Positions 3,535 to 49,551 of a DNA stretch of 49,551 bases are shown piece by piece. The notes beneath the pieces were generated by a model that did not search any database, was not told where the DNA came from, and saw nothing but the letters and a program-made list of their open reading frames with translations. The first letter of the stretch is position 1, and every line of letters starts with the position of its first letter. This DNA is from Gallionella sp. GTDB lineage: Bacteria; Pseudomonadota; Gammaproteobacteria; Burkholderiales; Gallionellaceae. The DNA lies in contig JANLIB010000164.1 in assembly GCA_024653675.1 (NCBI GenBank), positions 1 through 49,551 on the forward strand. The letters run 5' to 3'. A program made the position numbers and the translations under genes.

Positions 3535-4755
3535 TTGCCAGCATTCAGTTATGAAGCCGTGGACACGACCGGCGCTACCAAAAAAGGCGTAGTCAACGCC
3601 GACAGCGCCCGTGCCGCCCGCGCCGACCTGCGCACGCAAGGTCTGGTGCCGATCGCTGTAGCTGCGATCACGACCCAGCTCGACGAATCCGGACAAACCA
3701 GAACGCGCTCATTCGGCGATCGTCTGTCGACCGTGGAGCTGGCATTGTTCACACGCCAGCTCGCCAGTCTGCTGGAAGCCAGCCTGCCGCTGGAGCAGGC
3801 ATTTTCCGCGTTGCTGGAACAGGCAGAACGCACCTATGTGCGCGACCTGGTCGCTTCGATCCGCTCGGAGGTGATGGGCGGCACGTCGCTGTCCGATGCG
3901 CTGGCCAAACATCCGCGTGACTTTGCCGACATCTATCGCGCGATAGTTTCCTCGGGCGAACAGATCGGACAATTGTCGCGGGTGCTCTCAAGGCTCGCCG
4001 ACTATATCGAGCGGCGCAACGCGCTGGTGCAAAAGGTCAGGCTCGCATTCACCTATCCGGCGATCGTCACGGTGGTGGCATTCCTGATCGTGATCTTTCT
4101 GCTGACCTACGTCGTGCCGCAGATCGTGTCGGTGTTCGCCAACACCAAGCAGAAGCTGCCGTTCCTGACCATGGTGATGCTGGGCGTCTCCGATTTTGTG
4201 CGGTATTACGGCTGGATCGTATTGCTGGCAATCATCGCTCTGGCCTTTGCCTGGCGCCGCGCGCTCAGGAATCCGGCAATCAGGCTGCGCTGGCACACCT
4301 GGCTGTTGAACGCGCCGCTGTATGGCAGATTCGAGCGCAGCCTGAACACCGCGCGCTTTGCCAGCACGCTGGCGATCACCACCGCCTCCGGTGTGCCGAT
4401 ACTGCAAGCGCTGCAAACCAGCCGCGACACCCTGACCAACGTCGCGATGCGCGCGCAAGTCGAAGCGGCGACAGCCAGCGTGCGTGAAGGCGTGAGCCTG
4501 ACGCGCGCATTGTCCGGGCATCCGCATTTCCCTGCGATGATGATCCACATGATCCGCGCCGGCGAAATCACCGGTGAATTGCCGGCAATGCTGGAGCGCG
4601 CCGCCAATGCGCAGGAACAGGATCTGGAACGCCGCGCGATGACCATGGCGGGGTTGCTCGAACCCGCCCTGATACTCGCGATGGGTGTGGTGGTGCTGCT
4701 GATCGTATTGGCGGTGCTGATGCCGATCATCGAGATCAACCAATTGGTACGCTGA
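3535..4755 (+). CDS. gspF: Type II secretion inner membrane protein GspF
   Basis: LFTRQLASLL, AFTYPAIV, GEITGEL, LLEPALIL; follows gspE; TTG start with AAGGA RBS. Confidence 0.95.
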   Translation: MPAFSYEAVDTTGATKKGVVNADSARAARADLRTQGLVPIAVAAITTQLDESGQTRTRSFGDRLSTVELALFTRQLASLLEASLPLEQAFSALLEQAERTYVRDLVASIRSEVMGGTSLSDALAKHPRDFADIYRAIVSSGEQIGQLSRVLSRLADYIERRNALVQKVRLAFTYPAIVTVVAFLIVIFLLTYVVPQIVSVFANTKQKLPFLTMVMLGVSDFVRYYGWIVLLAIIALAFAWRRALRNPAIRLRWHTWLLNAPLYGRFERSLNTARFASTLAITTASGVPILQALQTSRDTLTNVAMRAQVEAATASVREGVSLTRALSGHPHFPAMMIHMIRAGEITGELPAMLERAANAQEQDLERRAMTMAGLLEPALILAMGVVVLLIVLAVLMPIIEINQLVR

Positions 4756-4897
4756 CAGGATGTTGAAAAACTACTGCGCTTGCCAATACTGCGTTAAAAA
4801 TTGGCTCAAAATCCTCATGTACTTTTGTGTACACTCCGGTTCTTCGCCAATTTTCGCCTTGTCTTGGCTGCGCTCGCTACGTTTTTCAACACCCTGT
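4755..4897. mobile_element. ~143-bp MITE
   Basis: TIR acaggatgttgaaaaa / tttttcaacaccctgt; internal inverted symmetry. Confidence 0.8.
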
Positions 4898-4934
4898 TAA
4901 TGGTATATTCTGCCGCCGATGTGAGAGGAATACC

Positions 4935-5342
4935 ATGAAACGCTTGCCACTGATTACAAGTTTCATACTGTTTATCGCGCTGTGCGCATCGGTCGCGTAT
5001 TGGGCGATGCAGTTGTTCAAGCCGCCGCAGCGCGCGGTCGCAGCCGCGCCCCGGACGGCCCAGCCTGCCGTTCGACTCGATGCCGCGGCCAGCCTGTTAG
5101 GCGGGCGTCCGACTACTGCCGTCGCCAGCAATTTTCAGCTTAAGGGCGTAGTGGTCGCCGGTGATCCGTCCGAGAGCGTCGCGATCCTGGCGGCTAACGG
5201 CAAGCCGCCGCAAGCGATCAGAACAGACAAGGAAGTCGTGCCTGGGGTAACAGTCAAGGAAATAAACAGCCGCTATGTGCTGTTGTCGGAAGGCGGCGTA
5301 ATCAAACGTGTTGACTTACCCGAAGATGCAAAGCGCAAATGA
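4935..5342 (+). CDS. T2SS GspC-like protein
   Basis: N-terminal transmembrane helix, FQLKGVVVAG..AIL, EVVPGVTVKEI; GAGG RBS before the ATG at 4935. Confidence 0.75.
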   Translation: MKRLPLITSFILFIALCASVAYWAMQLFKPPQRAVAAAPRTAQPAVRLDAAASLLGGRPTTAVASNFQLKGVVVAGDPSESVAILAANGKPPQAIRTDKEVVPGVTVKEINSRYVLLSEGGVIKRVDLPEDAKRK

Positions 5343-5392
5343 TCCGGAGCGTATCGAACTGTTGTTTTCCTGCGGTGTTGATACAGCAAATG

Positions 5393-5417
5393 AAAAAGCC
5401 GCTTGGAGCGGCTTTTT
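5393..5417. terminator. Bidirectional intrinsic terminator
   Basis: aaaaagccgct-tgg-agcggcttttt. Confidence 0.8.
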
Positions 5418-5490
5418 ACATTCATGTCCGTTGAATTTTGCCGGGAAAAATTGCACGATTGCTATTGAATACCTCGCCACAACACGCATT

Positions 5491-5721
5491 AACCCGGATA
5501 ATCCATTAGAAAAAACTTCGTCATTCCGGCGAAGGCCGGAATCCAGATGATTAATAATTCCCCACGAAAGTGGGACAACATTGTGTTTTTGTCTGCTTTG
5601 CAGAGTAATTTTTATGACTGGATTCCGGCCTTCGCCGGATAACCAGCGACTTGACCGCTTGCGGGCTTAGTCGAATGGCTAGTTGTTTCATCAATGACGG
5701 GCTAATGGATTATCTCGGATT
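5491..5721. mobile_element. Composite MITE containing a GTCATTCCGGC palindrome pair
   Basis: TIR aacccggataatccattag / ctaatggattatctcggatt; inner cgtcattccggcgaaggccggaatccag ... ctggattccggccttcgccgg[insert]aatgacg. Confidence 0.8.
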
Positions 5722-5789
5722 AACACACGATGCCATCAGTTGGCTTGCAAGCTGTTGCCCCCATAGTCATCCCCTCCCGGTGATACTGC

Positions 5790-6107
5790 CTATGCGGCCA
5801 ACAATTCAGCCTTTATCGGCTTGATTCGTGCCAATTTCTCCGGCCTTTGCTCGACTTCCCACAGATCCACGGCCTGCTGCATGCGCAACCAGCTTTCCGG
5901 CGTGGTGTTAAGCAGCTTGGCGATTCGCGCCGCCATCTCTGGAGTCAAGGCGCGCTTTTCGTGCAGCAGATCGGAAACTGTCAGGCGGGATACACCAAGC
6001 CTCTGCGCAAACTCGGTCTGGGTCATTTCGAGGGCAGGCAGTACGTCCTCGCGCAGGATGGCGCCAGGATGCGTCGGGCGGCGCTTCGGGTCTCGTAGGG
6101 TCTTCAT
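5790..6107 (-). CDS. higA: HigA-family antitoxin (HTH)
   Basis: PTHPGAILRE, TQTEFAQRLGVSRLTVS, TPESWLRMQ. Confidence 0.92.
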   Translation of the reverse strand: MKTLRDPKRRPTHPGAILREDVLPALEMTQTEFAQRLGVSRLTVSDLLHEKRALTPEMAARIAKLLNTTPESWLRMQQAVDLWEVEQRPEKLARIKPIKAELLAA

Positions 6108-6385
6108 CAGTGATAATCCTCCAAATTAACATCGATGGCATCTTTGCCGTCGAATCGAAAAGTGATGCGCCAGTTGCCGGTCACCGTCACGGCATAGGTT
6201 CCCTTGCAGCTCCCCGTTAGCGGGTGAAATTTGTATCCGGGAATGTTCATGTCCTCCGGCCTCACGATGGTATCAAGCCGGTCAAGCATCCGTTCAGTTC
6301 GCACCTCAGTCTTGGCGATGATTCCCCGGTGGTCGCCCTTCTTGAAGAACCGCTCAAGACCTTTGTGTTTGAATGTTCGAATCAT
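6107..6385 (-). CDS. higB: HigB (RelE/ParE-like) toxin
   Basis: MIRTFKHKGLERFF, GYKFHPL.G, VTGNWRITFRF, LEDYH; lies upstream of higA. Confidence 0.92.
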   Translation of the reverse strand: MIRTFKHKGLERFFKKGDHRGIIAKTEVRTERMLDRLDTIVRPEDMNIPGYKFHPLTGSCKGTYAVTVTGNWRITFRFDGKDAIDVNLEDYH

Positions 6386-6391
6386 GGCGAT

Positions 6392-6431
6392 ATGTAATTA
6401 ATTAGAATGCATTGTAATTAGTACAATTACA
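6392..6431. promoter_or_regulatory. Probable higBA operator palindrome
   Basis: ttgtaatt-agtac-aattacaa plus a second tgtaatta copy just upstream of higB. Confidence 0.5.
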
Positions 6432-6435
6432 AATG

Positions 6436-6836
6436 TCAAACGGCTTTAGCTGGCAGCGAAACCACTTCTGCCCCGGCCTTCAACTTGTCCAGGTAGTCCG
6501 CCCATAGCTGCATCATCTTCCGGCGCTCGACAAGGTGAGCAGCGCGTTTGTATGCGCGTCCGTTCGGATCGCGCACGGCATGGGCAAATGATGTTCGATG
6601 AAGTCCGGGCGCACCTGTTGTTCCCCCCTTTGAAAAGGGGGCATGTGGGAATTCGAGACGCGCCGAATATGTAAATCCCCCTCGATCCCCCTTTTCACCC
6701 GCAAGGGGTACGCCGGTGGGTGCCCCGCTGCTGCGCAGCGACCCTCCCGCAGTCAAAGGGGGAAGCGGCACGGTGATGCGTCATACTGCGAATTGTTCAG
6801 AAGCATGTTCTTTATTGCGGTATCGGTTAGCGACAT
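6436..6836 (-). pseudogene. Internally deleted P4-like tyrosine integrase remnant
   Basis: Start at 6836 reads MSLTDTAIKN; C-terminal RPDFIEHHL / AHAVRDPNGRAY..RRKMMQLWADYLD with a frameshift; the middle is replaced by repeats. Confidence 0.8.
6623..6764. repeat. CCCCCTTT-N-AAAGGGGG hairpin doublet with a nested insert
   Basis: cccccctttgaaaaggggg..ggga and aatccccctcgatcccccttt[insert]caaaggggga. Confidence 0.7.
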
Positions 6837-6922
6837 GGGGGTAACTCCTTCACGCTATGTGCGTGTTACCCCGCAAGTTACCCCCGGATATCAATAGACG
6901 GGACAGGGCTACCCAAGACAAC

Positions 6923-6959
6923 AAAAAGCCCGCAATGCGTTTATTCATGCGGGCTTTCT
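6923..6959. terminator. Terminator-like hairpin downstream of the tRNA
   Basis: aaaaagcccgca...tgcgggctttct. Confidence 0.6.
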
Positions 6960-6991
6960 GGACTTGCTTGAACTGCTTTGTACTGTCTATA

Positions 6992-7068
6992 TGGTAGGCA
7001 CGATTGGACTCGAACCAACGACCCCTTGGATGTCGACCAAGTGCTCTAACCAGCTGAGCTACGCGCCT
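6992..7068 (-). tRNA. tRNA-Val (GAC)
   Basis: AGGCGCG acceptor stem, TAGCTCAGCTGGTTAGAGC D arm, CTTGG-TCGACAT-CCAAG anticodon arm, GTTCGAGTC T loop, CCA end; 77 nt. Confidence 0.95.
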
Positions 7069-7084
7069 GTTTTTGAGACCGCGC

Positions 7085-7113
7085 ATTGTAGCCGAAAGCC
7101 CGGCGCGCTTCAA
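7085..7113 (-). promoter_or_regulatory. Sigma70 promoter for the tRNA
   Basis: TTGAAG-17 bp-TACAAT followed by a GC-rich discriminator. Confidence 0.65.
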
Positions 7114-7125
7114 ATAGAAACGCGC

Positions 7126-8505
7126 TTAATAATTGCCTGACGCCAGATTGTCGAAACGCGTGTATTCGCCGCGGAAAGCGAGCGGCACCATGCCGATCGG
7201 GCCATTGCGCTGTTTGCCGATGATGATCTCGGCCTTGCCTTTATCGGGCGAGTTCTCGTTATAGATTTCATCGCGGTAGATGAACAGGATCAAGTCTGCA
7301 TCCTGTTCGATCGCTCCGCTTTCACGCAGATCGGACATCACCGGGCGTTTGTTGGGGCGTTGCTCTAAACTGCGGTTCAACTGCGACAGCGCGATCACCG
7401 GCACATGCAATTCCTTCGACAAGGCCTTTAAGGAGCGGGAAATTTCCGAGATTTCCGTGGCGCGGTTCTCGCTGGCCTTGCCCGCAGCCGAACTCATCAA
7501 TTGCAGATAGTCCACCACGATGAGTCCCAGATTATGCTGGCGATGCAGGCGGCGCGACCGCGCGCGCACTTCCAGGGCGGACAGCGCGCCGCTTTCGTCG
7601 ATGAAAATCGGCGCGTCATTCAGCTTGCCAAGCGCGTGCGTCAGCCTCCCCCAGTCGTCATCCTTCAGACGTCCGGTGCGTAATGCCTGCTGGTCGAGCT
7701 TGCCGACCGAGCCGAGCATGCGCATCGCCAGCTGCGATGCGCCCATTTCCATGCTGAAAATTGCCACCGGCAGTTTGCTGTCCAGCGCTACATTCTCGGC
7801 GATGTTGATTGCGAAAGCAGTCTTACCCATGCTCGGACGTCCGGCGATGATAATCAGTTCGCCGGACTGCAAGCCGGAGGTCTTGCGGTCCAGATCGGTG
7901 AAGCCGGTCGCGGTTCCGGTGATGTCGCTGGGGTTGTCGCTTCCATACAGTGTCTCGATGCGCTCCACCGCCTGAGTCAACAGCGGCGGCATGGCGATAA
8001 AGCCTTGCTGGCCGCGCGAACCTGCCTCGGCGATCTCCAGAACTTTTCTTTCCGCCTCGTCGAGCAATTGCGCGGCATCGCGCCCGGAAGGATTGTAGGA
8101 GCTGCTGGCGATATCGGTGCCGACTTCCGCAAGCTTGCGCATGATGGAACGCTCGCGCACGATCTCGCCATAGCGGCGGATGTTGGCAGCCGACGGCACG
8201 TTCTGCGCCAGGCTGCCCAGATAGGGCAATCCGCCCACCTTGTCCAGTTCGCCGGCGATCTCGAGCGCCTCGGCCACGGTGATCACGTCCACGGGTTTCA
8301 TCTGCTCGCTCAGGCGCACGATCTGGCTGAAGATCAGCCGGTGTTCCTGACGGTAGAAGTCTTCGCCGGTCACCAGGTCGACGATGCGGTCCAGCGCGCC
8401 GGCTTCAAGCAGCAAGCCTCCCAGCACCGATTGCTCGGCCTCGACCGAATGCGGCGGCAGTTTTATTTGTTCGAGTTGCGCGTCCGCGTGGGTGAAATTT
8501 TGCAT
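7126..8505 (-). CDS. dnaB: Replicative DNA helicase
   Basis: PPHSVEAEQSVLG, GRPSMGKT, DYLQL, DLRESGAIEQDAD, KQRNGP. Confidence 0.98.
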   Translation of the reverse strand: MQNFTHADAQLEQIKLPPHSVEAEQSVLGGLLLEAGALDRIVDLVTGEDFYRQEHRLIFSQIVRLSEQMKPVDVITVAEALEIAGELDKVGGLPYLGSLAQNVPSAANIRRYGEIVRERSIMRKLAEVGTDIASSSYNPSGRDAAQLLDEAERKVLEIAEAGSRGQQGFIAMPPLLTQAVERIETLYGSDNPSDITGTATGFTDLDRKTSGLQSGELIIIAGRPSMGKTAFAINIAENVALDSKLPVAIFSMEMGASQLAMRMLGSVGKLDQQALRTGRLKDDDWGRLTHALGKLNDAPIFIDESGALSALEVRARSRRLHRQHNLGLIVVDYLQLMSSAAGKASENRATEISEISRSLKALSKELHVPVIALSQLNRSLEQRPNKRPVMSDLRESGAIEQDADLILFIYRDEIYNENSPDKGKAEIIIGKQRNGPIGMVPLAFRGEYTRFDNLASGNY

Positions 8506-8565
8506 AGGATTGTTATCGTTCGGGAGCGATTAAGCGGAGGGTATTTTACCTTGTTGCAGGAATAT

Positions 8566-8654
8566 GCAGGGGCGCGATTTATATCGAAGAGATTCTTGTG
8601 CCCTGCGGGTATCGCGCCCCAATGTAAAAAGGGCGCGATAAATCGCGCCCCTAC
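8566..8654. repeat. GTAGGGGCGCGAT-family REP doublet; one loop carries a 30-bp insert
   Basis: gcaggggcgcgattt[8581-8610]atcgcgccc ... gggcgcgataaatcgcgcccctac. Confidence 0.85.
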
Positions 8655-8689
8655 AAAACATCTTTGTATTTCCTTGATACGGCGGAGAA

Positions 8690-9139
8690 TTATTGCTCGC
8701 CGAGCACCGAAACCGTGATCCCCGCCACCACGTCGGTATGCAGAGCGATGTCGAGATGGTGATCGCCGATCTGCTTGAGGTGGCCTTCAGGCATGCGCAC
8801 TTGCGCCTTCTCGACTTCAAAGCCTTGCTGAGCCAGCGCGGCTACGATGTCGGCATTGGTGACGGAGCCGAACAGCTTGCCGTCCACGCCGGCCTTTTGC
8901 ACGATCTGCAAAGTCAGGCCGGCAAGTTTCTCGCCGCGCGCCTGCGCTTCAGCCAGCTTGACCTTGTCGGCTGCTTCCAGTTCACCGCGGCGCACTTCGA
9001 ACTCGGCCATGTTGGCATCGGTCGCACGCTTGGCCTTGCCTTGCGGAATCAGGAAGTTGCGCGCAAAACCGTTCTTGACCTTGACTACCTGGCCCAATTG
9101 GCCGACGTTGGTCACTTTTTCCATCAATATTACTTGCAT
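8690..9139 (-). CDS. rplI: 50S ribosomal protein L9
   Basis: [36 protein letters not shown]. Confidence 0.98.
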
Positions 9140-9997: not shown

Positions 9998-10786
9998 GGT
10001 GTTTGATGCGCCGCGGCGCTGCCGCACCGCTTCGAACAGGCAGATCGCAGCCGCCGCAGCGGCATTCAGCGACTCGACCTTACCCGGCATCGGAATGGTG
10101 ATCTGCCGTGTGGCGAGATTCAGCAATTCGTCTGACAGCCCGCCCCCTTCGTTGCCGATCATAAACGCGATATTACCGCGCAGGTCGCAGTCATACAGGC
10201 TGTGCGTAGCTTGCAAACTGGCTGCCAGCAGCATACCGGGGAATGTCTTCGCCACGTCCGGCAAGTCCTGCCGCTCGTGGATATCCAGCGCAAAATGACC
10301 GCCCATCGCGGCGCGCAGCACTTTGGGCGACCACGCGTCGGCGCAGCCTTTGGACAGAAACACCGCGTCGCATCCCGCCGCTGCCGCCGAACGCAGTATC
10401 GAGCCGAGATTACCGGGGTCCTGGATATCCTCCAGCAACAACGCAAAATTACTGTCAGCAGATGAAACAGCCGGCTGAGGTAAATCTACCAGCGCGAGGA
10501 TGCCGGTGGGTGTTTTCAGTTCGCTGAGTTCTGCGAACAATTTGTCATCCAGTTGTGTGACCGGCACATTATTTATGCGTAGCAACAATCCGGCGATTTC
10601 GTCGTCGTGCAACGCCGCTGCGTTCAGCAAAATGTGCTGTGGCATCACTCCGGCATCCAGATACGCCGCCAGCAAATGCGCGCCATCCAGCAGGGTCTGA
10701 TTGGCTTTGCCGCGTTGCCGGGCCGAACCGGCGAGCTTGATAAGTTCCCTGAAGAAAGGATTATCGCGTGATCGGATCAGTTTCAT
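9971..10786 (-). CDS. TrmH/SpoU-family RNA methyltransferase
   Basis: [39 protein letters not shown]. Confidence 0.93.
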
Positions 10787-11385
10787 GCCTTGACGTCCTT
10801 CGGGTCTGTAGGGGCGCGATTCATCGCGCCCTGGTTTACCGCGACATCCGGGTTTTCACTGTCAATTGCCCACTGCGCCGGGTTATTGGCGATGTATTCG
10901 CGGATTTCCTGCAACGAGGATTCGTTGCGGATGACATGTTCATAGTAATTTCGCTGCCAAATTGATAGCCCCTTCGTGCCCAGTAATTGGTTGACGCTGT
11001 GCGTACAACGCGCTTTGAATGCCCGGACGATTTCACCCAACGTAGGGGCGCGATTCATCGCGCCCAGGTTTGCCGCGCCATCATCATTGGACGCGATGAA
11101 TCGCGCCCCTGCGGTATTCAACAAGATGATGCCATGAATATGATTTGGCATTACAACGAAGGAATCCAATTCGATGCATGAATAATGCTCAGGCAACGCA
11201 TCCCAGATGTTCTGCGCCAAGCGCCCGGCTTCGTTCAACTGCACAACATCGCCCGCCAACGCGCCAAACAAACATTTCCGTTCTTGCGTACATAGAGTTA
11301 TGAAGTATGCACCGGCCTGCGAATAATCGTAGTTGCGTAACCGGACGGAACGACGATGGTGGATGTCGGGATTGAATGTCGACAT
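10783..11385 (-). CDS. RAYT-like transposase (HHRRSVRL subgroup) with REPs inside its ORF
   Basis: HHRRSVRLRNYDYSQAGAYFITLCT, VVMPNHIHGII, WQRNYYEHVIR, YIANNP; the GARFIA and GAMNRAPT peptides are REP translations. Confidence 0.9.
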   Translation of the reverse strand: MSTFNPDIHHRRSVRLRNYDYSQAGAYFITLCTQERKCLFGALAGDVVQLNEAGRLAQNIWDALPEHYSCIELDSFVVMPNHIHGIILLNTAGARFIASNDDGAANLGAMNRAPTLGEIVRAFKARCTHSVNQLLGTKGLSIWQRNYYEHVIRNESSLQEIREYIANNPAQWAIDSENPDVAVNQGAMNRAPTDPKDVKA

Positions 11386-11400
11386 ATTAGATCGCAAACC

Positions 11401-11497
11401 GGGCGCGATAAATCGCGCCCCTACGGGATGTTCTGGTTTCCGCATTGTAGGGGCGCGATTCATCGCGCCCTGATCCGCTGGTTAATCACGCCCCTAC
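11401..11497. repeat. Cluster of GTAGGGGCGCGA REPs upstream of RAYT 2
   Basis: gggcgcgataaatcgcgccccctac, gtaggggcgcgattcatcgcgccc, cgcccctac. Confidence 0.85.
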
Positions 11498-41341: not shown

Positions 41342-41513
41342 GACGCTAAAAATTCAGAGTACGCCCAAATGCAAGGCGTGGAAAAAATTTGCGAGCATCC
41401 GCTACACGGATTGCCTGCTTACCCCACTTCGCAGCGCCGCATATGGTTGATATGTAAGCAAGAAATTTTTTTCACAACGCAGCAGTTGGGATGTAATCTG
41501 GATTTTGAGTTAC
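41342..41513. mobile_element. Degenerate ~170-bp MITE-like inverted element
   Basis: gacgctaaaaattcagagtacgcccaaatgcaaggcg ... caacgcagcagttgggatgtaatctggattttgagttac; supplies the permease stop codon. Confidence 0.6.
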
Positions 41514-44050
41514 TCGCGCAATATCGCCAGCGGCGGCAGCACGGACAAGCGGCGCGTGCCCAGCCATCCGGCCAGCGCAACCGTTGCGATGCCGCCCAGC
41601 ACGCCGATCGGCCAGATCACGGCGCTGGATTGATAGGGTATTTCCAGGACGAAACGCGCCAGCACCCAGCCGAGCAGCACTGCGCCCGCCGCCGCAAACA
41701 GCCCGCTCAAGCCGCCCAGCACGGTGAATTCGGCAAGGTGCAGACGGCGCAGGTAGCGCCCGTCCGCACCCAGCGTGCGCAGCACCGCCGCTTCGAAGGT
41801 GCGCTCGTCCTGCGTGGCGAGCAGCGCGGCGTACAGCACCGCGAAGCCGGACAGCAGCGTGAACAGGAACACCGCGCCCATCACCTGCGTGATCTGGTCC
41901 ATGATGTGGCGCACCTGGGCGATGATCGCGCCGGTGTCGATCACCAGCACGTTCGGGAACTCCCGCGCCAGCGCATCGCCCGCGCGCACCTTGTCCGGCG
42001 GCAGGTAGAAGCTGGTGAGATAGCTGGCCGGAAAATCGCTGAGCAGTTCCGGCGTGGCGATCACGAAGAAATTCGCCCGCATCGAATCCCATTGCACCTT
42101 GCGCAGACTGGTCACGCGCGCGGTAAAGGGCGTAGCCCCCACATCGTAGGTGAGCATATCGCCGAGATAGATGCCCAGCGTCCGGGCGATGCCCTCCTCG
42201 ACCGACAACTCGCCGCCATTCAGTCCTCCGTCCTCAGTCCTCAGTCCTCTGACCTGCCACCACTCCCCCTGCACCAGTTCGTTCCACTCCGGCATCCGCT
42301 CCATATAGGAAAGATTGAACTCGCGCTCCACCAGCCCGCGCGCCCGCGGCTCCGGATAACTGTCGCCATTGACGGGAATATCGTTGATCGCGACCAGCCG
42401 GCCGCGCACCATCGGCTGCAATTGCGGCGGCGGCAACCGTTCGCGCGCAAAGAAATCCAGCACCGGCTGCATCTGATCGGGCTGGATGTTCACGACGAAG
42501 CGGTTCGGCGCATCGGGCGGCAACTTGTCCTGCCAGCCCTGCAGCAGATCGCCGCGCACCAGTGTCAGCAGCAGCAAGGCCATGCCGCCCAGCGCCAATG
42601 CGACGACCTGCAGCGCGTTGTTGCGCACATGTCTTACCAGATTGTTAAGCGCATGCCGCCAATGCGATGCCAGATCCGGGACGTAACGCCCCAGCCCTCG
42701 TAATACCAGTCCGCGCAATATCAGCCAGGCCAACCCGCCGAACACGGCCAGCCCCGCCAGCAAGCCGGCCAGCACCGCAAAACCCAGCTCCAGCGAACCC
42801 GCGTGCCACAGGAACAGCGCCGCCAGCACCAGCACGGCCAGGCCATAGGCCAGCAGGATATTCGGCTGTGGCGCACCCAGCTCGCGGCGCAACACGCGCA
42901 GCGGCGATACCTTGCGCAGTTGCAGCAGCGGCAGGAACGCAAAGCCGAGCAGCAAGGCAAATCCGCTGGCTGCCGCCTTGATCGCGGGCAGCACGCCGGG
43001 CTGAGGCAACGCCGAATCGCGCATGACTTCGACGAAGGAGATCAAGACTGCCTGCGTGGCATAGCCCAGCGCGCAGCCCAGCAGCACCGCGAACAGACCA
43101 AGCATCAGGAACTGGTACAGGAACAAACGCAGCACCTGCCCCTGCTGCGCGCCGAGACAGCGCATCACCGCGCAAGTATCCAGATGGCGCTGCACGAAAC
43201 GCCGCGCAGCCAGCAGGATAGCCGCGCCCGCAAGGATCGCGGCGGTCAGCGCGGCGAGCCCGAGAAAATGCTCGGCGCGTTCCAGCGCACTGCGTATCTC
43301 GGGCCGCGCATCGCGCACGTCCTCCAGCCGCTCGTTGCCGGACAGCTTCGCCTTCAACTCGTCGCGCAGTGCAGCGACCTGCGCCGCCTCGCCCGCGACC
43401 ATCAGGCGATAAGTGATGCGGCTGCCTTCCTGCTGCAAGCCGGTCGCGGCGAGGTCTTGCACGTTCATCAGCACGCGCGGCGCGAAACTGGAAAAGCCGA
43501 CGGACTGGTCGATGTCCTTCACGATGCGCGCCGCCACGACGAAACGCTGCGTGCCGATATTCACCTCATCGCCGACACGCACTTCGAGACGGCGCAGCAA
43601 GCGATCGTCCGCCCACACTGTGCCGGGCGCGGGGATACCGCCACTACTCCCCTCTCCCGCAAGCGGGAGAGGGGCCGGGGGAGAGGGAGGATCGATCACG
43701 ATCTTCCCGCGCAACGGATATCCCGCCTCCACCGCCTGTATCTCGGAGAGCAGCGTCTGTTCGCGGAACGACACCATGCTCAGGAAGCTGCGGCTCTCGA
43801 CAGTTTGCAAGCCGCGCGCCTGTGCGCTGTTGCGGTAAACCGACGGCAGCGGGCGCGTCGAAGTAATGCGCAAATCCGCCCCGATCAAACTGGTCGCCTC
43901 CTGCTGCAATGCCTGCCGCACCCGGTCGGCGAACAGCCCGACCGTGGCGAGGCTGCCCACCGCCAGCACCAGCGCCAGCAACAGCACGCGCCACTCACCG
44001 GCGCGCCAGTCGCGGCGAAGAAGATTGAGGGACAGGCGGAGGAGGTTCAT
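41510..44050 (-). CDS. ABC transporter permease (YbbP/FtsX-like)
   Basis: LRRDWRAGE, GADLRI, YPLRG, PNRFVVNIQPDQ, REFNLS, LRTLGA; carries two in-frame repeat insertions. Confidence 0.92.
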   Translation of the reverse strand: MNLLRLSLNLLRRDWRAGEWRVLLLALVLAVGSLATVGLFADRVRQALQQEATSLIGADLRITSTRPLPSVYRNSAQARGLQTVESRSFLSMVSFREQTLLSEIQAVEAGYPLRGKIVIDPPSPPAPLPLAGEGSSGGIPAPGTVWADDRLLRRLEVRVGDEVNIGTQRFVVAARIVKDIDQSVGFSSFAPRVLMNVQDLAATGLQQEGSRITYRLMVAGEAAQVAALRDELKAKLSGNERLEDVRDARPEIRSALERAEHFLGLAALTAAILAGAAILLAARRFVQRHLDTCAVMRCLGAQQGQVLRLFLYQFLMLGLFAVLLGCALGYATQAVLISFVEVMRDSALPQPGVLPAIKAAASGFALLLGFAFLPLLQLRKVSPLRVLRRELGAPQPNILLAYGLAVLVLAALFLWHAGSLELGFAVLAGLLAGLAVFGGLAWLILRGLVLRGLGRYVPDLASHWRHALNNLVRHVRNNALQVVALALGGMALLLLTLVRGDLLQGWQDKLPPDAPNRFVVNIQPDQMQPVLDFFARERLPPPQLQPMVRGRLVAINDIPVNGDSYPEPRARGLVEREFNLSYMERMPEWNELVQGEWWQVRGLRTEDGGLNGGELSVEEGIARTLGIYLGDMLTYDVGATPFTARVTSLRKVQWDSMRANFFVIATPELLSDFPASYLTSFYLPPDKVRAGDALAREFPNVLVIDTGAIIAQVRHIMDQITQVMGAVFLFTLLSGFAVLYAALLATQDERTFEAAVLRTLGADGRYLRRLHLAEFTVLGGLSGLFAAAGAVLLGWVLARFVLEIPYQSSAVIWPIGVLGGIATVALAGWLGTRRLSVLPPLAILRE

Positions 44051-44445
44051 ACCTCTTCCCCTCTCACACTTGTGGGAGAGGGGTTAGGGGAGAGGGTCTC
44101 TGCGGATATAGCCTCGCCGGTGAGCGCCAGCCGTATCTGCTCCAACACACCTTCCGTTTCATTCATCAGTTCGTTATTCCAAAAACGCAACACTGTAAAA
44201 CCTTGGCTGCGCAACCATGAATCTCGCTCATGGTCGTACACCATACTTTCTGCGTGCTGCCCGCCATCCAGTTCGATGATCAGCTTCTCTTCCAGACAAA
44301 TAAAATCCACCACATAACGGCCTATAGGTTTTTGCCGCTTGAATTTTCTGCCCATAAAGCGATGAGCGCGCAAGTGATACCACAGCTTTTGTTCCGCATC
44401 GGTCAGGTTGCGGCGTAAAGTTTTGGCGTTATCCAGCAGGCTCAT
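44047..44445 (-). CDS. DUF559 / Vsr-like PD-(D/E)XK endonuclease
   Basis: AKTLRRNLTDAEQKLW..LR, KFKRQKPIGRYVVDFICLEEKLIIELDGGQH, DHERDSWLRSQGFTVLRFWNNE. Confidence 0.92.
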   Translation of the reverse strand: MSLLDNAKTLRRNLTDAEQKLWYHLRAHRFMGRKFKRQKPIGRYVVDFICLEEKLIIELDGGQHAESMVYDHERDSWLRSQGFTVLRFWNNELMNETEGVLEQIRLALTGEAISAETLSPNPSPTSVRGEEV

Positions 44446-44490
44446 GCTCGCCCTCTCCCCTGCCCCTCTCCCACAAGTGTGAGAGGGGAA
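44056..44490. mobile_element. DUF559 cassette bounded by ~41-bp hairpin inverted repeats
   Basis: 44056-44097 and 44450-44490 are near-perfect reverse complements. Confidence 0.8.
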
Positions 44491-44494
44491 ATGC

Positions 44495-44564
44495 ACAGCA
44501 CGCGCCACTCCCCGGCGCGCCAGTCGCGGCGGAGCAGGTTGAGGGAAAGGTGGAGAAAATTCAT
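44495..44564 (-). pseudogene. Orphan duplicate of the first 70 bp of the permease gene
   Basis: 61/70 identical to 43981-44050; reads MNFLHLSLNLLRRDWRAGEWRVL. Confidence 0.9.
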
Positions 44565-44574
44565 TTTCCAATCA

Positions 44575-45240
44575 CTATTCCACCCGCCCTGCGACAAGAC
44601 GCAACTGCTTTCTGCATCTTCGCGCCAGCGCTTCGTCGTGAGTGACGAGTATCAGCGTGGTGCCCTGCGCGCGGTTCAGTTCCAGCATCAGTTCGATGAT
44701 CTGGCTACCAGTGGCGGCGTCGAGGTTGCCGGTGGGTTCGTCGGCGAACAGGATCTTCGGCTGGGTGACAAAGGCGCGGGCCAGTGCGACGCGCTGCTGC
44801 TCGCCACCGGAGAGATGCTTGGGCAGGTGGTGCACGCGGGCGCTCAAGCCGACCTGGCGCAAGGATACCTCGGCGCGGGCATACGCATCGGCAGCGCCGC
44901 GCAGTTCCAGCGGCAGCATCACGTTCTCCAGCGCGGAAAGCGCGGGCAGCAACTGGAACGACTGGAACACGAAGCCCGCCAGTTCGCCGCGCAGCCTGGC
45001 GCGCCCATCCTCGTCCAGCGCGAACAGGTCCATGCCATTCAGCAACACACTGCCGCTGCTCGGCACGTCCAGCCCGGCGAGCAGGCCGAGCAGGGTAGAC
45101 TTGCCGGAACCGGATGCGCCGAGAATCGCCAGGCTCTCGCCCGCCTCGACCGCAAAACTTGCGTGGTGCAAGATGGTCAGTGGTTGGTCGCCGCTAAGCA
45201 CTTGCTTAGTAAGTTCAACTGCCTGCACAATCGCTGCCAT
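44575..45240 (-). CDS. ABC transporter ATP-binding protein (YbbA-like)
   Basis: GASGSGKST, GFVFQSFQL, LSGGEQQRVALARA, FADEPTGNLD. Confidence 0.95.
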   Translation of the reverse strand: MAAIVQAVELTKQVLSGDQPLTILHHASFAVEAGESLAILGASGSGKSTLLGLLAGLDVPSSGSVLLNGMDLFALDEDGRARLRGELAGFVFQSFQLLPALSALENVMLPLELRGAADAYARAEVSLRQVGLSARVHHLPKHLSGGEQQRVALARAFVTQPKILFADEPTGNLDAATGSQIIELMLELNRAQGTTLILVTHDEALARRCRKQLRLVAGRVE

Positions 45241-49067: not shown

Positions 49068-49551
49068 TTACCCTCCATAATCCAATTCCACACCCACATC
49101 GCCCGCCCAATCCTTCGGCACAATACCGGCTTGCACGTAACGATGAAACGACGAATGCGACCACTCTGCAACACGCGACACCAAGCCGTGCTTGACCGGA
49201 TTGATATGGATGTAATCGACATGCCGTGAAAAATCCGCCTCGTCGCGGATGAGATGTTCCCAATATCGCCGCTGCCATACTCCACGCTCGCCTTTGATTT
49301 GCCGGCTCTTGGAGCGACGCTCGCCATGCGGCAAGCCACGCGAGAAGACCGTTTTGATTAGCTTCCAGCGTAGCGCGAAATCGCTGTCTCCGGCAGGCAA
49401 CGTCCAGATGGCGTGAAGGTGATCCGGCAATACCACAATGGCGTCCACGATGAAGGGATGTCGCTCACGGGTATATTCAAAAGCGCTGCGCAACAATGCG
49501 ATGTGATCGGTTAGTAAGGATTGCGAGCGGTCGGCAAGATTCACCGTGAAG
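49068..49551 (-). CDS. RAYT transposase (5' end outside the window)
   Basis: FTVNL, VVLPDHLH, WQRRYWEHLIRD, YIHINPVKHG, WSHSSF. Confidence 0.9.
   Translation of the reverse strand, partial: FTVNLADRSQSLLTDHIALLRSAFEYTRERHPFIVDAIVVLPDHLHAIWTLPAGDSDFALRWKLIKTVFSRGLPHGERRSKSRQIKGERGVWQRRYWEHLIRDEADFSRHVDYIHINPVKHGLVSRVAEWSHSSFHRYVQAGIVPKDWAGDVGVELDYGG

What the first reader, a model, noticed from the sequence alone, without database searches (positions are those of the whole stretch)
43981..44564. The nuclease cassette brought its own replacement 5' end of the host gene (70-bp diverged, mostly synonymous duplication)
Seen: 44495-44564 repeats 43981-44050, the first 70 bp of the permease, at 61/70 identity (MNFLHLSLNLLRRDWRAGEWRVL versus MNLLRLSLNLLRRDWRAGEWRVL). 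Six of the nine differences are synonymous third-position changes. The differences cluster near the ATG, and only one falls in the distal ~37 bp. The orphan copy sits 10 bp after the ATPase stop, where the original start belongs, and breaks off 4 bp from the repeat arm. Inferred: this is not a decayed ordinary target-site duplication. Both copies evolved as coding DNA, so one is a foreign allele. That fits single-crossover or break-repair integration of [cassette + first 70 bp of the permease] from another lineage, a homing-like entry that restores the target gene.
Basis: partly seen in the sequence, partly recalled or inferred. Interest (0 to 1): 0.85.

Follow-up and report, generated by a model that had tools for sequence, protein, structure and literature searches.

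The report
Duplicated gene start marks cassette stacking
A 70-base spare copy of a transporter gene's start sits in front of a small inserted nuclease gene, and the same join recurs in several related species; it is likely a scar of ordinary host recombination, not of the nuclease, and likely now serves as a docking arm for further insertions and as a short translated link into the inserted gene.

Summary
Observation confirmed: 44495-44564 repeats the first 70 bp of a ybbP-like permease at 61/70. It is not an assembly chimera: the same stub-hairpin-DUF559 join occurs in 7 genomes of the genus and in unrelated public contigs. The ybbA-ybbP gap is a variable slot, empty in 34 of 94 genomes; 17 of 96 upstream segments carry a ybbP start stub, also before REP-transposase (RAYT) and toxin-antitoxin cassettes. 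About 14 other genes in this genome have end copies, on the outer side. So the foreign-allele reading is supported (96/140 differences at third positions), but nuclease-driven homing is not. Best reading: one homology-anchored insertion joined at a microhomology, then spread between species by host recombination. Closest known: insertion with long target duplication, and minimal mobile elements. Two additions: the stub is an open 40-codon frame ending on the DUF559 start, with the frame kept across indels; sister RAYT cassettes join their targets at a constant AG. This scan noted similar stubs on other DNA (15 findings).

The parts
44575..45240 (-). ybbA-like ABC ATPase; upstream flank of the variable slot
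   Evidence: Pfam ABC_tran; best NCBIfam hit YbbA, below its cut-off
44495..44564 (-). Stub: orphan copy of the first 70 bp of the permease, at the native start position
   Evidence: nearly the same stop-to-ATG spacer in sister genome G024
44442..44564 (-). 40-codon open frame from the stub ATG through the left hairpin; its stop overlaps the DUF559 ATG (ATGA)
44496..44507 (-). Candidate microhomology at the joint: permease nt 58-69 resembles the last codons of ybbA
   Evidence: best match of the ybbA end among the first 300 nt of ybbP at three window sizes; post hoc
44451..44490 (-). Left REP-like hairpin with purine-rich tail
   Evidence: 73 matches to this hairpin pattern in the genome
44047..44445 (-). 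DUF559 endonuclease-like gene, 132 aa; C-terminus runs through the right hairpin and its stop overlaps the permease ATG
   Evidence: Pfam PF04480 E=2.6e-46; PDB 3hrl 'endonuclease-like protein'; overlap in 12 of 13 alleles
44056..44096 (-). Right REP-like hairpin, inverted relative to the left one
   Evidence: 28-bp arms 100% complementary
43981..44050 (-). Functional first 70 bp of the permease
41510..44050 (-). ybbP-like FtsX permease, 846 aa; downstream flank
   Evidence: Pfam FtsX, MacB_PCD; best NCBIfam hit YbbP, below its cut-off

Best explanation
The 70-bp copy is a leftover start of the permease gene whose join to the hairpin-DUF559 cassette is shared by several species of the genus; it likely arose once by host recombination that used ybbP as the homologous anchor and joined the other end at a short microhomology, and it likely spread between species by homologous recombination without needing the nuclease. 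SHOWN: variable slot; one shared join in different upstream contexts; scatter on the host tree; same architecture with nuclease-free cargo and at other genes; stub frame ending on the DUF559 start. INFERRED step 1: a donor with ybbA-hairpin-DUF559-hairpin-ybbP was joined through its ybbA end to nt 58-69 of a recipient ybbP, leaving the recipient's start in place. INFERRED step 2: the stub and the true start are both recombination arms, so a new cassette can stack in front instead of replacing the resident one. INFERRED step 3: the stub stays open and in frame because ribosomes entering at the old start relay to DUF559 and on to ybbP in a tightly coupled operon. Linear double crossover and single crossover of a circle give the same product and are not separated here.
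For: Slot: of 94 genomes with both flanks in the fetched stretch, 34 empty, 2 with 41-300 bp, 58 with >300 bp; cargo includes DUF559, RAYT, GIY-YIG, ParE/MazF/PIN pairs, PilZ, GFA. Same +69/70 join in 7 genomes, two with a 15-bp internal deletion, and in 7 of the 16 best metagenome loci as full stubs. On the ybbA+ybbP tree the 5 placeable carriers need 5 changes, at least 4 forced by well-supported branches. Stacking: the DNA in front of a stub lies in front of the working ybbP start in other genomes (G150 vs G157 88.5% over 322 bp up to the ATG; also G031/G166, G118/G141, G034/G088, G114/G142). Microhomology ranks first of about 290 positions; G108's ybbA end matches 10 of 11 nt. Genome-wide: of 1344 genes, 10 have 3' copies, all downstream; 7 have 5' copies upstream (5 after curation); internal windows give 0, 2 and 3; none inverted. 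No integrase family among the insert proteins scanned. Relay: stub stop lies -12 to +4 nt from the DUF559 start in 13 of 13 alleles with an intact ATG; 6 of 7 length classes share one frame. Empty alleles have a gap of -5 to +25 nt (34 genomes).
Against: The spacer between microhomology and hairpin differs (8 nt in stub alleles, 9-13 nt in 5 stub-less alleles), so the exact donor was not seen. ybbP beyond nt 70 follows the host clade in G000, so donor tracts must be short, which fits a circle at least as well. The DUF559 tree is unresolved: one origin is neither shown nor rejected (p-AU 0.24). Competence is not established: ComEC and DprA families present, ComEA-type HHH_3 not found, and E. 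coli also has the first two. Relay: all three frames read through the left hairpin; coding deletions between repeated codons tend to be in frame anyway; G132's stub has a nonsense codon; 0 of 4 other 5' stubs in this genome are tightly coupled. Alleles are related, so p-values overstate.
Confidence: 0.7

Rival explanations
1. Circle route: the cassette loops out between stub and true start as a ~514-bp circle and re-enters other cells' ybbP starts by one crossover inside the 70 bp. It is a specific sub-route of the best explanation.
For: Predicts a conserved join, any upstream context, and host-type ybbP beyond nt 70, all seen. G114's 81-bp stub is 100% identical to its gene. In E. coli, recircularised donor DNA gave 109-950 bp duplications by single crossover (PMC3240628, passages).
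Against: Only 70 bp at 87% identity is available for pairing. No 'goes back' joint is listed in 8 public runs, but these are contigs of relatives and the tables were cut, so this is weak. No transfer route for a non-replicating circle is evident.
Confidence: 0.25
2. DUF559 acts as a free-standing homing endonuclease: it cuts empty alleles near the ybbP start and repair copies the cassette in.
For: Intact endonuclease-like protein; spreads between species at one site; one unrelated DUF559-hairpin locus has a 72-bp duplicated gene junction (L313).
Against: Occupied alleles keep a normal ybbP start with no shared protective change (largest frequency gap 0.25, 12 vs 98 alleles). Six genomes carry DUF559 at this slot with no stub. 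0 of 17 other-locus DUF559 cassettes in the genus, and none of the 3 other copies in this genome, show a flanking gene-end duplication. Nuclease-free cassettes have the same stubs.
Confidence: 0.07
3. One ancient exact duplication, inherited vertically, decaying in place and lost in most lineages.
For: Stubs do decay: 13 of 345 stub codons give amino acids never seen in working genes, against 15 of 2288 singletons in working genes; remnants in G035 and L259.
Against: Carriers fall in three separated clades with empty or other-cargo sisters; DUF559 identity exceeds flank identity; 96/140 third-position differences against about 50% expected; most stubs are not closest to their own gene.
Confidence: 0.07
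4. Chimeric assembly of two strains.
For: The genome is in 307 contigs with 2% contamination; no run of the same strain was found.
Against: Same join in 6 other genomes. Single contigs span DUF559 start, hairpin, whole stub and ATPase end without gaps in runs X4 and X5 (possibly one data set); X1 and X8 span the hairpin-stub join.
Confidence: 0.01

Closest known systems
Insertion with long target duplication (Furuta, Abe, Kobayashi 2010, PMC2853133; passages read)
   Same: Nuclease gene inserted without integrase, flanked by a >30-bp imperfect direct repeat that is single in the empty allele; mostly seen in naturally competent species.
   Different: Described for restriction-modification genes and tentatively tied to their DNA breakage. 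Here the cargo is DUF559, RAYT or toxin-antitoxin pairs, the repeat is always a gene end on the outer side, one join is shared across species, and cassettes stack.
Minimal mobile elements of Neisseria (as described in PMC1797815; passages) and toxin-antitoxin islets between core genes (PMC13617665; passages)
   Same: [quoted passage not shown]
   Different: The passages read describe no duplicated gene ends; the stub adds a second arm that turns replacement into stacking.
Orphan-module arrays by homology-facilitated illegitimate recombination (Vibrio cholerae T6SS, PMC5361080; passages)
   Same: One end anchored by homology, the other joined illegitimately; successive insertions leave displaced orphan pieces.
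   Different: There whole immunity genes are displaced in a conflict locus; here 35-370 bp ends of housekeeping genes.
Single-crossover insertion-duplication of recircularised DNA in E. coli (PMC3240628; passages)
   Same: Experimentally gives partial duplication (109-950 bp) of the anchor gene around foreign DNA.
   Different: Plasmid conjugation in the laboratory; no circle is shown here.
REPtrons / REP-associated tyrosine transposase (PMC8266576; passages)
   Same: Single nuclease gene between inverted hairpins; the sister cassette at this slot is a true RAYT (NF047646 above cut-off).
   Different: The window's cassette encodes DUF559, not a HUH transposase, and its hairpins lack the GTAG tag.

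Membership tests
Insertion with long target duplication (Furuta 2010 criteria) | Direct repeat >30 bp flanking the insert, single in an empty allele | tested here: met
   70 bp; 34 empty alleles in the genus
Insertion with long target duplication (Furuta 2010 criteria) | Insert <20 kb with no integrase or transposase | tested here: met
   444-bp insert, one DUF559 gene
Insertion with long target duplication (Furuta 2010 criteria) | Cargo includes restriction and modification genes | tested here: not met
   no methyltransferase; works like this class but is not one of its RM cases
Minimal mobile element | Alternative small cassettes at one syntenic site between conserved genes | tested here: met
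Minimal mobile element | Horizontal exchange, incongruent with host tree | tested here: met
Minimal mobile element | Host is naturally transformable (feature recalled, from no call) | tested here: inconclusive
   ComEC and DprA found, HHH_3 not found
Free-standing homing endonuclease | Occupied allele differs at the target so that it resists cleavage (feature recalled) | tested here: not met
   no diagnostic base in ybbP 1-120; ybbA side not tested
Free-standing homing endonuclease | Site-specific cleavage of the empty allele | not testable with these tools
   needs biochemistry
Integrase-driven element restoring its target gene | Encodes a site-specific recombinase; near-identical att core | tested here: not met
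   no recombinase; copies 87% identical; break points vary between cassette types
REPtron (RAYT) | HUH tyrosine transposase with GTAG-tagged REPs | tested here: not met
   DUF559 here; met for the sister cassette in G024
Homology-facilitated illegitimate recombination product | Microhomology at the non-homologous joint | tested here: inconclusive
   top-ranked match at nt 69, but spacer differs and donor not seen

The most novel reading that the evidence does not exclude
Gene-end stubs are working parts of an integrase-free cassette-stacking system, not dead scars. The stub is a second recombination arm that lets cassettes pile up, and selection keeps it as a translated relay peptide that carries ribosomes through the hairpin to the cargo nuclease and the host gene. 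In the sister RAYT cassettes the transposase itself makes the non-homologous joint, by cutting at CT (AG on the coding strand in 4 of 4 checkable targets), while host recombination makes the other end. That would be a genomic record of how REPtrons move between species.
Probability: 0.3. Interest if true: 0.72.

Novelty: new variant of a known kind. Interest (0 to 1): 0.45.

Why it matters
How small islets with no mobility genes (toxin-antitoxin pairs, REP-nuclease cassettes) enter tight operons without breaking them is only partly explained. This locus gives a genus-wide series of empty, single and stacked states, with break points readable to the base, and the same polarity at about 14 other genes of one genome. 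Two ideas become directly testable: that a leftover gene start is kept to preserve translational coupling, and that RAYT makes one-ended joints, whose dissemination mechanism PMC8266576 calls unresolved. As a class the scar is known, so the interest is moderate.

Tried and rejected
Assigning host versus donor copy: 70 bp is too short and alleles too alike. Clustering of differences near the ATG as evidence: matches background. DUF559 tree: no supported branches. Duplication as a DUF559 signature: 0 of 17 genus loci (1.5-kb flanks; one 32-bp repeat in L219 not examined further) and 1 clear unrelated case among 80 metagenome loci, 50 with >300 nt on both sides. Beyond the genus: no nearby second copy among the other 59 matching genomes of 301 searched, but only 2 candidates were scored per genome and sensitivity is low. 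radA-like 3' end across the genus: second copies in 4 of 100 matching genomes including this one, so ybbP is the hotter slot. Runs of the same strain: none held half the words. Literature: DUF559 with REP/palindrome and with endonuclease/inverted repeat/mobile listed no paper on such cassettes; PMC3733652 has no 'DUF' passage; translational coupling with target duplication and REP with coupling listed nothing on a relay stub. The library lacks most subscription papers, so absence in print is not shown. No supplements were read. No structure or complex prediction was run.

Full report
OBSERVATION. The repeat is real: 43981-44050 and 44495-44564, 61 of 70 identical, 514 bp apart (self-BLAST E=1.8e-15). 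On the minus strand the order is a ybbA-like ABC ATPase (45240-44575), 10 bp, the stub, 4 bp, a hairpin, DUF559 (44445-44047), an inverted hairpin, and a ybbP-like FtsX permease (44050-41510). Seven of nine differences are at third positions and six codons differ synonymously. Alone this rejects neutral decay (p=0.008) but not a duplicate with one copy under selection (p=0.09). The clustering near the ATG matches background: 10% of 357 comparable pairs of working alleles show it.

NOT A CHIMERA. The same stub-hairpin join occurs in G031, G150, G089, G075, G145 and G177, the last two with a 15-bp internal deletion; G035 has a remnant seen by eye. Among the 16 best metagenome loci, 7 carry a full stub, 2 a partial one, 1 a remnant and 6 none; some may be the same organisms as the genomes. 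Single contigs in runs X4 and X5 (possibly one data set) span DUF559 start, hairpin, stub and ATPase end without gaps, at about 88-89% identity; X1 and X8 span the hairpin-stub join. No run of this strain was found.

A VARIABLE SLOT. 138 of 156 genomes of the genus match the ybbP start. I fetched loci for the listed strong matches, giving 129 genomes with a start; 94 had ybbA within the fetched stretch. Of those, 34 are empty (gap -5 to +25 nt), 2 have 41-300 bp and 58 have more. Cargo includes DUF559, RAYT, GIY-YIG, ParE, MazEF and PIN pairs, PilZ and GFA genes, and many unknowns (86 proteins scanned). A profile of ybbP starts finds a stub in 17 of 96 upstream segments (E<=1.2e-5; next hit 0.47): 7 with the DUF559-type join, 6 more before RAYT, 4 before toxin-antitoxin cassettes. 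Six genomes have DUF559 here with no stub.

FOREIGN ALLELES AND SPREAD. Over 16 stub/gene pairs (G102, which lacks its ATG, left out), 96 of 140 differences are at third positions, close to the 75% between working alleles. Only 3 of 16 stubs rank their own gene first. Stubs also decay: 13 of 345 codons give amino acids never seen in working genes. On a 99-genome ybbA+ybbP tree, the 5 placeable DUF559-join carriers need 5 changes and fall in three clades (bootstrap not fully converged). This genome's sister G024 has a RAYT cassette instead. DUF559 is 87% identical to G089's while ybbA and ybbP are 78% and 68%. ybbP beyond nt 70 follows the host clade, so donor tracts are short. Host and donor copies could not be told apart.

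STACKING. DNA upstream of a stub lies upstream of the working start in other genomes: G150 and G157 are 88.5% identical over 322 bp right up to the ATG, with similar cases for G031, G118, G034, G114 and G083. Stubs are therefore former working starts, and cassettes were added one after another.

ORIGIN OF THE JOIN. The last 10-14 coding bases of ybbA in five stub-less DUF559 alleles match ybbP best at position 69 of its first 300 nt, at three window sizes. That is where the stub ends. The spacer to the hairpin is 8 nt in stub alleles and 9-13 nt in the candidate donors, so this is suggestive only.

THE NUCLEASE IS NOT NEEDED. Nuclease-free cassettes have the same stubs. None of 17 other-locus DUF559 cassettes in the genus, nor the 3 other copies in this genome, has a flanking gene-end duplication; one unrelated metagenome locus does. 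No base in ybbP 1-120 marks occupied alleles. In this genome, of 1344 predicted genes, 10 have a 3'-end copy, always downstream. Nine have a 5'-window copy, 7 upstream; I discount 2 of these as a paralogue motif and a repeat, leaving 5 including ybbP. Three internal control windows give 0, 2 and 3 genes, and no copy is inverted; 75 of 119 differences are at third positions. The enclosed genes are mostly small toxin-antitoxin-like pairs, with no integrase family among those scanned. ComEC and DprA families are present and HHH_3 was not found, so transformation is plausible but unproven.

THE STUB IS OPEN. From its ATG the stub runs 40 codons through the hairpin and stops overlapping the DUF559 ATG; DUF559's stop overlaps the ybbP ATG in 12 of 13 alleles. 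In 13 of 13 alleles with an intact ATG the stub stops -12 to +4 nt from the DUF559 start. Distances of 95, 104, 119, 158, 173 and 224 nt share one frame; the 117 class has an earlier stop. RAYT stubs show the same: seven distances in one frame, six ending 13 nt before the RAYT start. Against: all three frames pass the left hairpin, coding deletions favour multiples of three, G132 has a nonsense codon, and 0 of 4 other 5' stubs in this genome are tightly coupled. I infer, without expression data, selection to keep translation linked across the insert.

COMPARISON. The architecture matches insertion with long target duplication (PMC2853133, passages) except that the cargo is not a restriction-modification pair. 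It matches minimal mobile elements (PMC1797815, passages) and toxin-antitoxin islets (PMC13617665, passages) in slot behaviour. Orphan stacking by homology-facilitated illegitimate recombination (PMC5361080, passages) and single crossover of recircularised DNA (PMC3240628, passages) are the two candidate routes; they give the same product here. PMC8266576 (passages) supplies the CT cleavage rule for REP transposases. My searches found no paper on DUF559-hairpin cassettes or relay stubs, in a library that lacks most subscription papers; no supplements were read. This scan has noted stub-cassette-replacement scars in other genomes; those notes agree but are unchecked and are not used as support.

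VERDICT. Observation confirmed; interpretation partly supported. A recombination scar of a known kind, shared and reused across a genus, with two untested extras (translated relay, constant RAYT joint). New variant of a known kind; interest 0.45.

Noticed in passing
L031 (G024), L065 (G118), L046 (G099), L080 (G074), L085 (G075), L234 (G029): RAYT cassettes join their left target at a constant AG followed by TTYC-GTAG; the AG is present in the target in 4 of 4 checkable cases (ybbP nt 98, a cargo gene, a DUF559 hairpin tail, a 20-bp remnant of another gene's start). AG is CT on the other strand, the cleavage dinucleotide of REP transposases in PMC8266576. 0 of 8 same-family repeats in this genome have this context. 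Post hoc, small n.
   Followed up: partly
7 RAYT stub alleles (L031, L044, L045, L065, L072, L077, L085): Stub-ATG to RAYT-start distances 151, 157, 166, 190, 226, 226, 229 are all 1 mod 3; 6 of 7 stubs read through the repeats to a stop 13 nt before the RAYT start.
   Followed up: partly
G000 contigs C125, C209, C198, C43, C241, C109, C188, C248, C227, C128, C233, C305, C168, C165 (L144-L159): End copies of housekeeping genes (MFS, DegS-like, FolD, RadA, UvrB, DinG-like and others) bracket small cassettes, many toxin-antitoxin-like (ParE, Phd-ParE, MNT-HepT, DUF433-DUF5615, DUF4160-DUF2442, AAA_14-DUF4143).
   Followed up: partly
window 43648-43687: A hairpin repeat of the same family lies in frame inside the ybbP coding sequence; a related contig has other letters there.
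   Followed up: no
L162 (G000 C234) 4117-8805: A DUF559 domain and several copies of a ~110-bp hairpin repeat lie inside one 1562-codon open frame; similar long frames in other genomes.
   Followed up: no
L313 284-355 and 916-987: Unrelated metagenome contig: DUF559 between hairpins with a 72-bp duplication covering the end of one gene and the start of the next.
   Followed up: partly
L100 (G114) and L088 (G102): The same addiction-module/ParE cassette has an 81-bp stub 100% identical to its gene in G114 and an eroded 35-bp stub in G102; recent gene conversion or assembly smoothing in G114 is possible.
   Followed up: no
L035 1634-2071 (G155): Cargo gene in the slot with a Pfam NarE family hit (E=2e-9).
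   Followed up: no
window 49068-49551, 241-786, 10783-11463: Three RAYT-like genes in this window; the first passes the NCBIfam REP-transposase cut-off.
   Followed up: no
G071 C124, G160 C30, G007 C10 (L132, L137, L138): ybbP start copies on a different contig from the main gene; fetched but not analysed.
   Followed up: no
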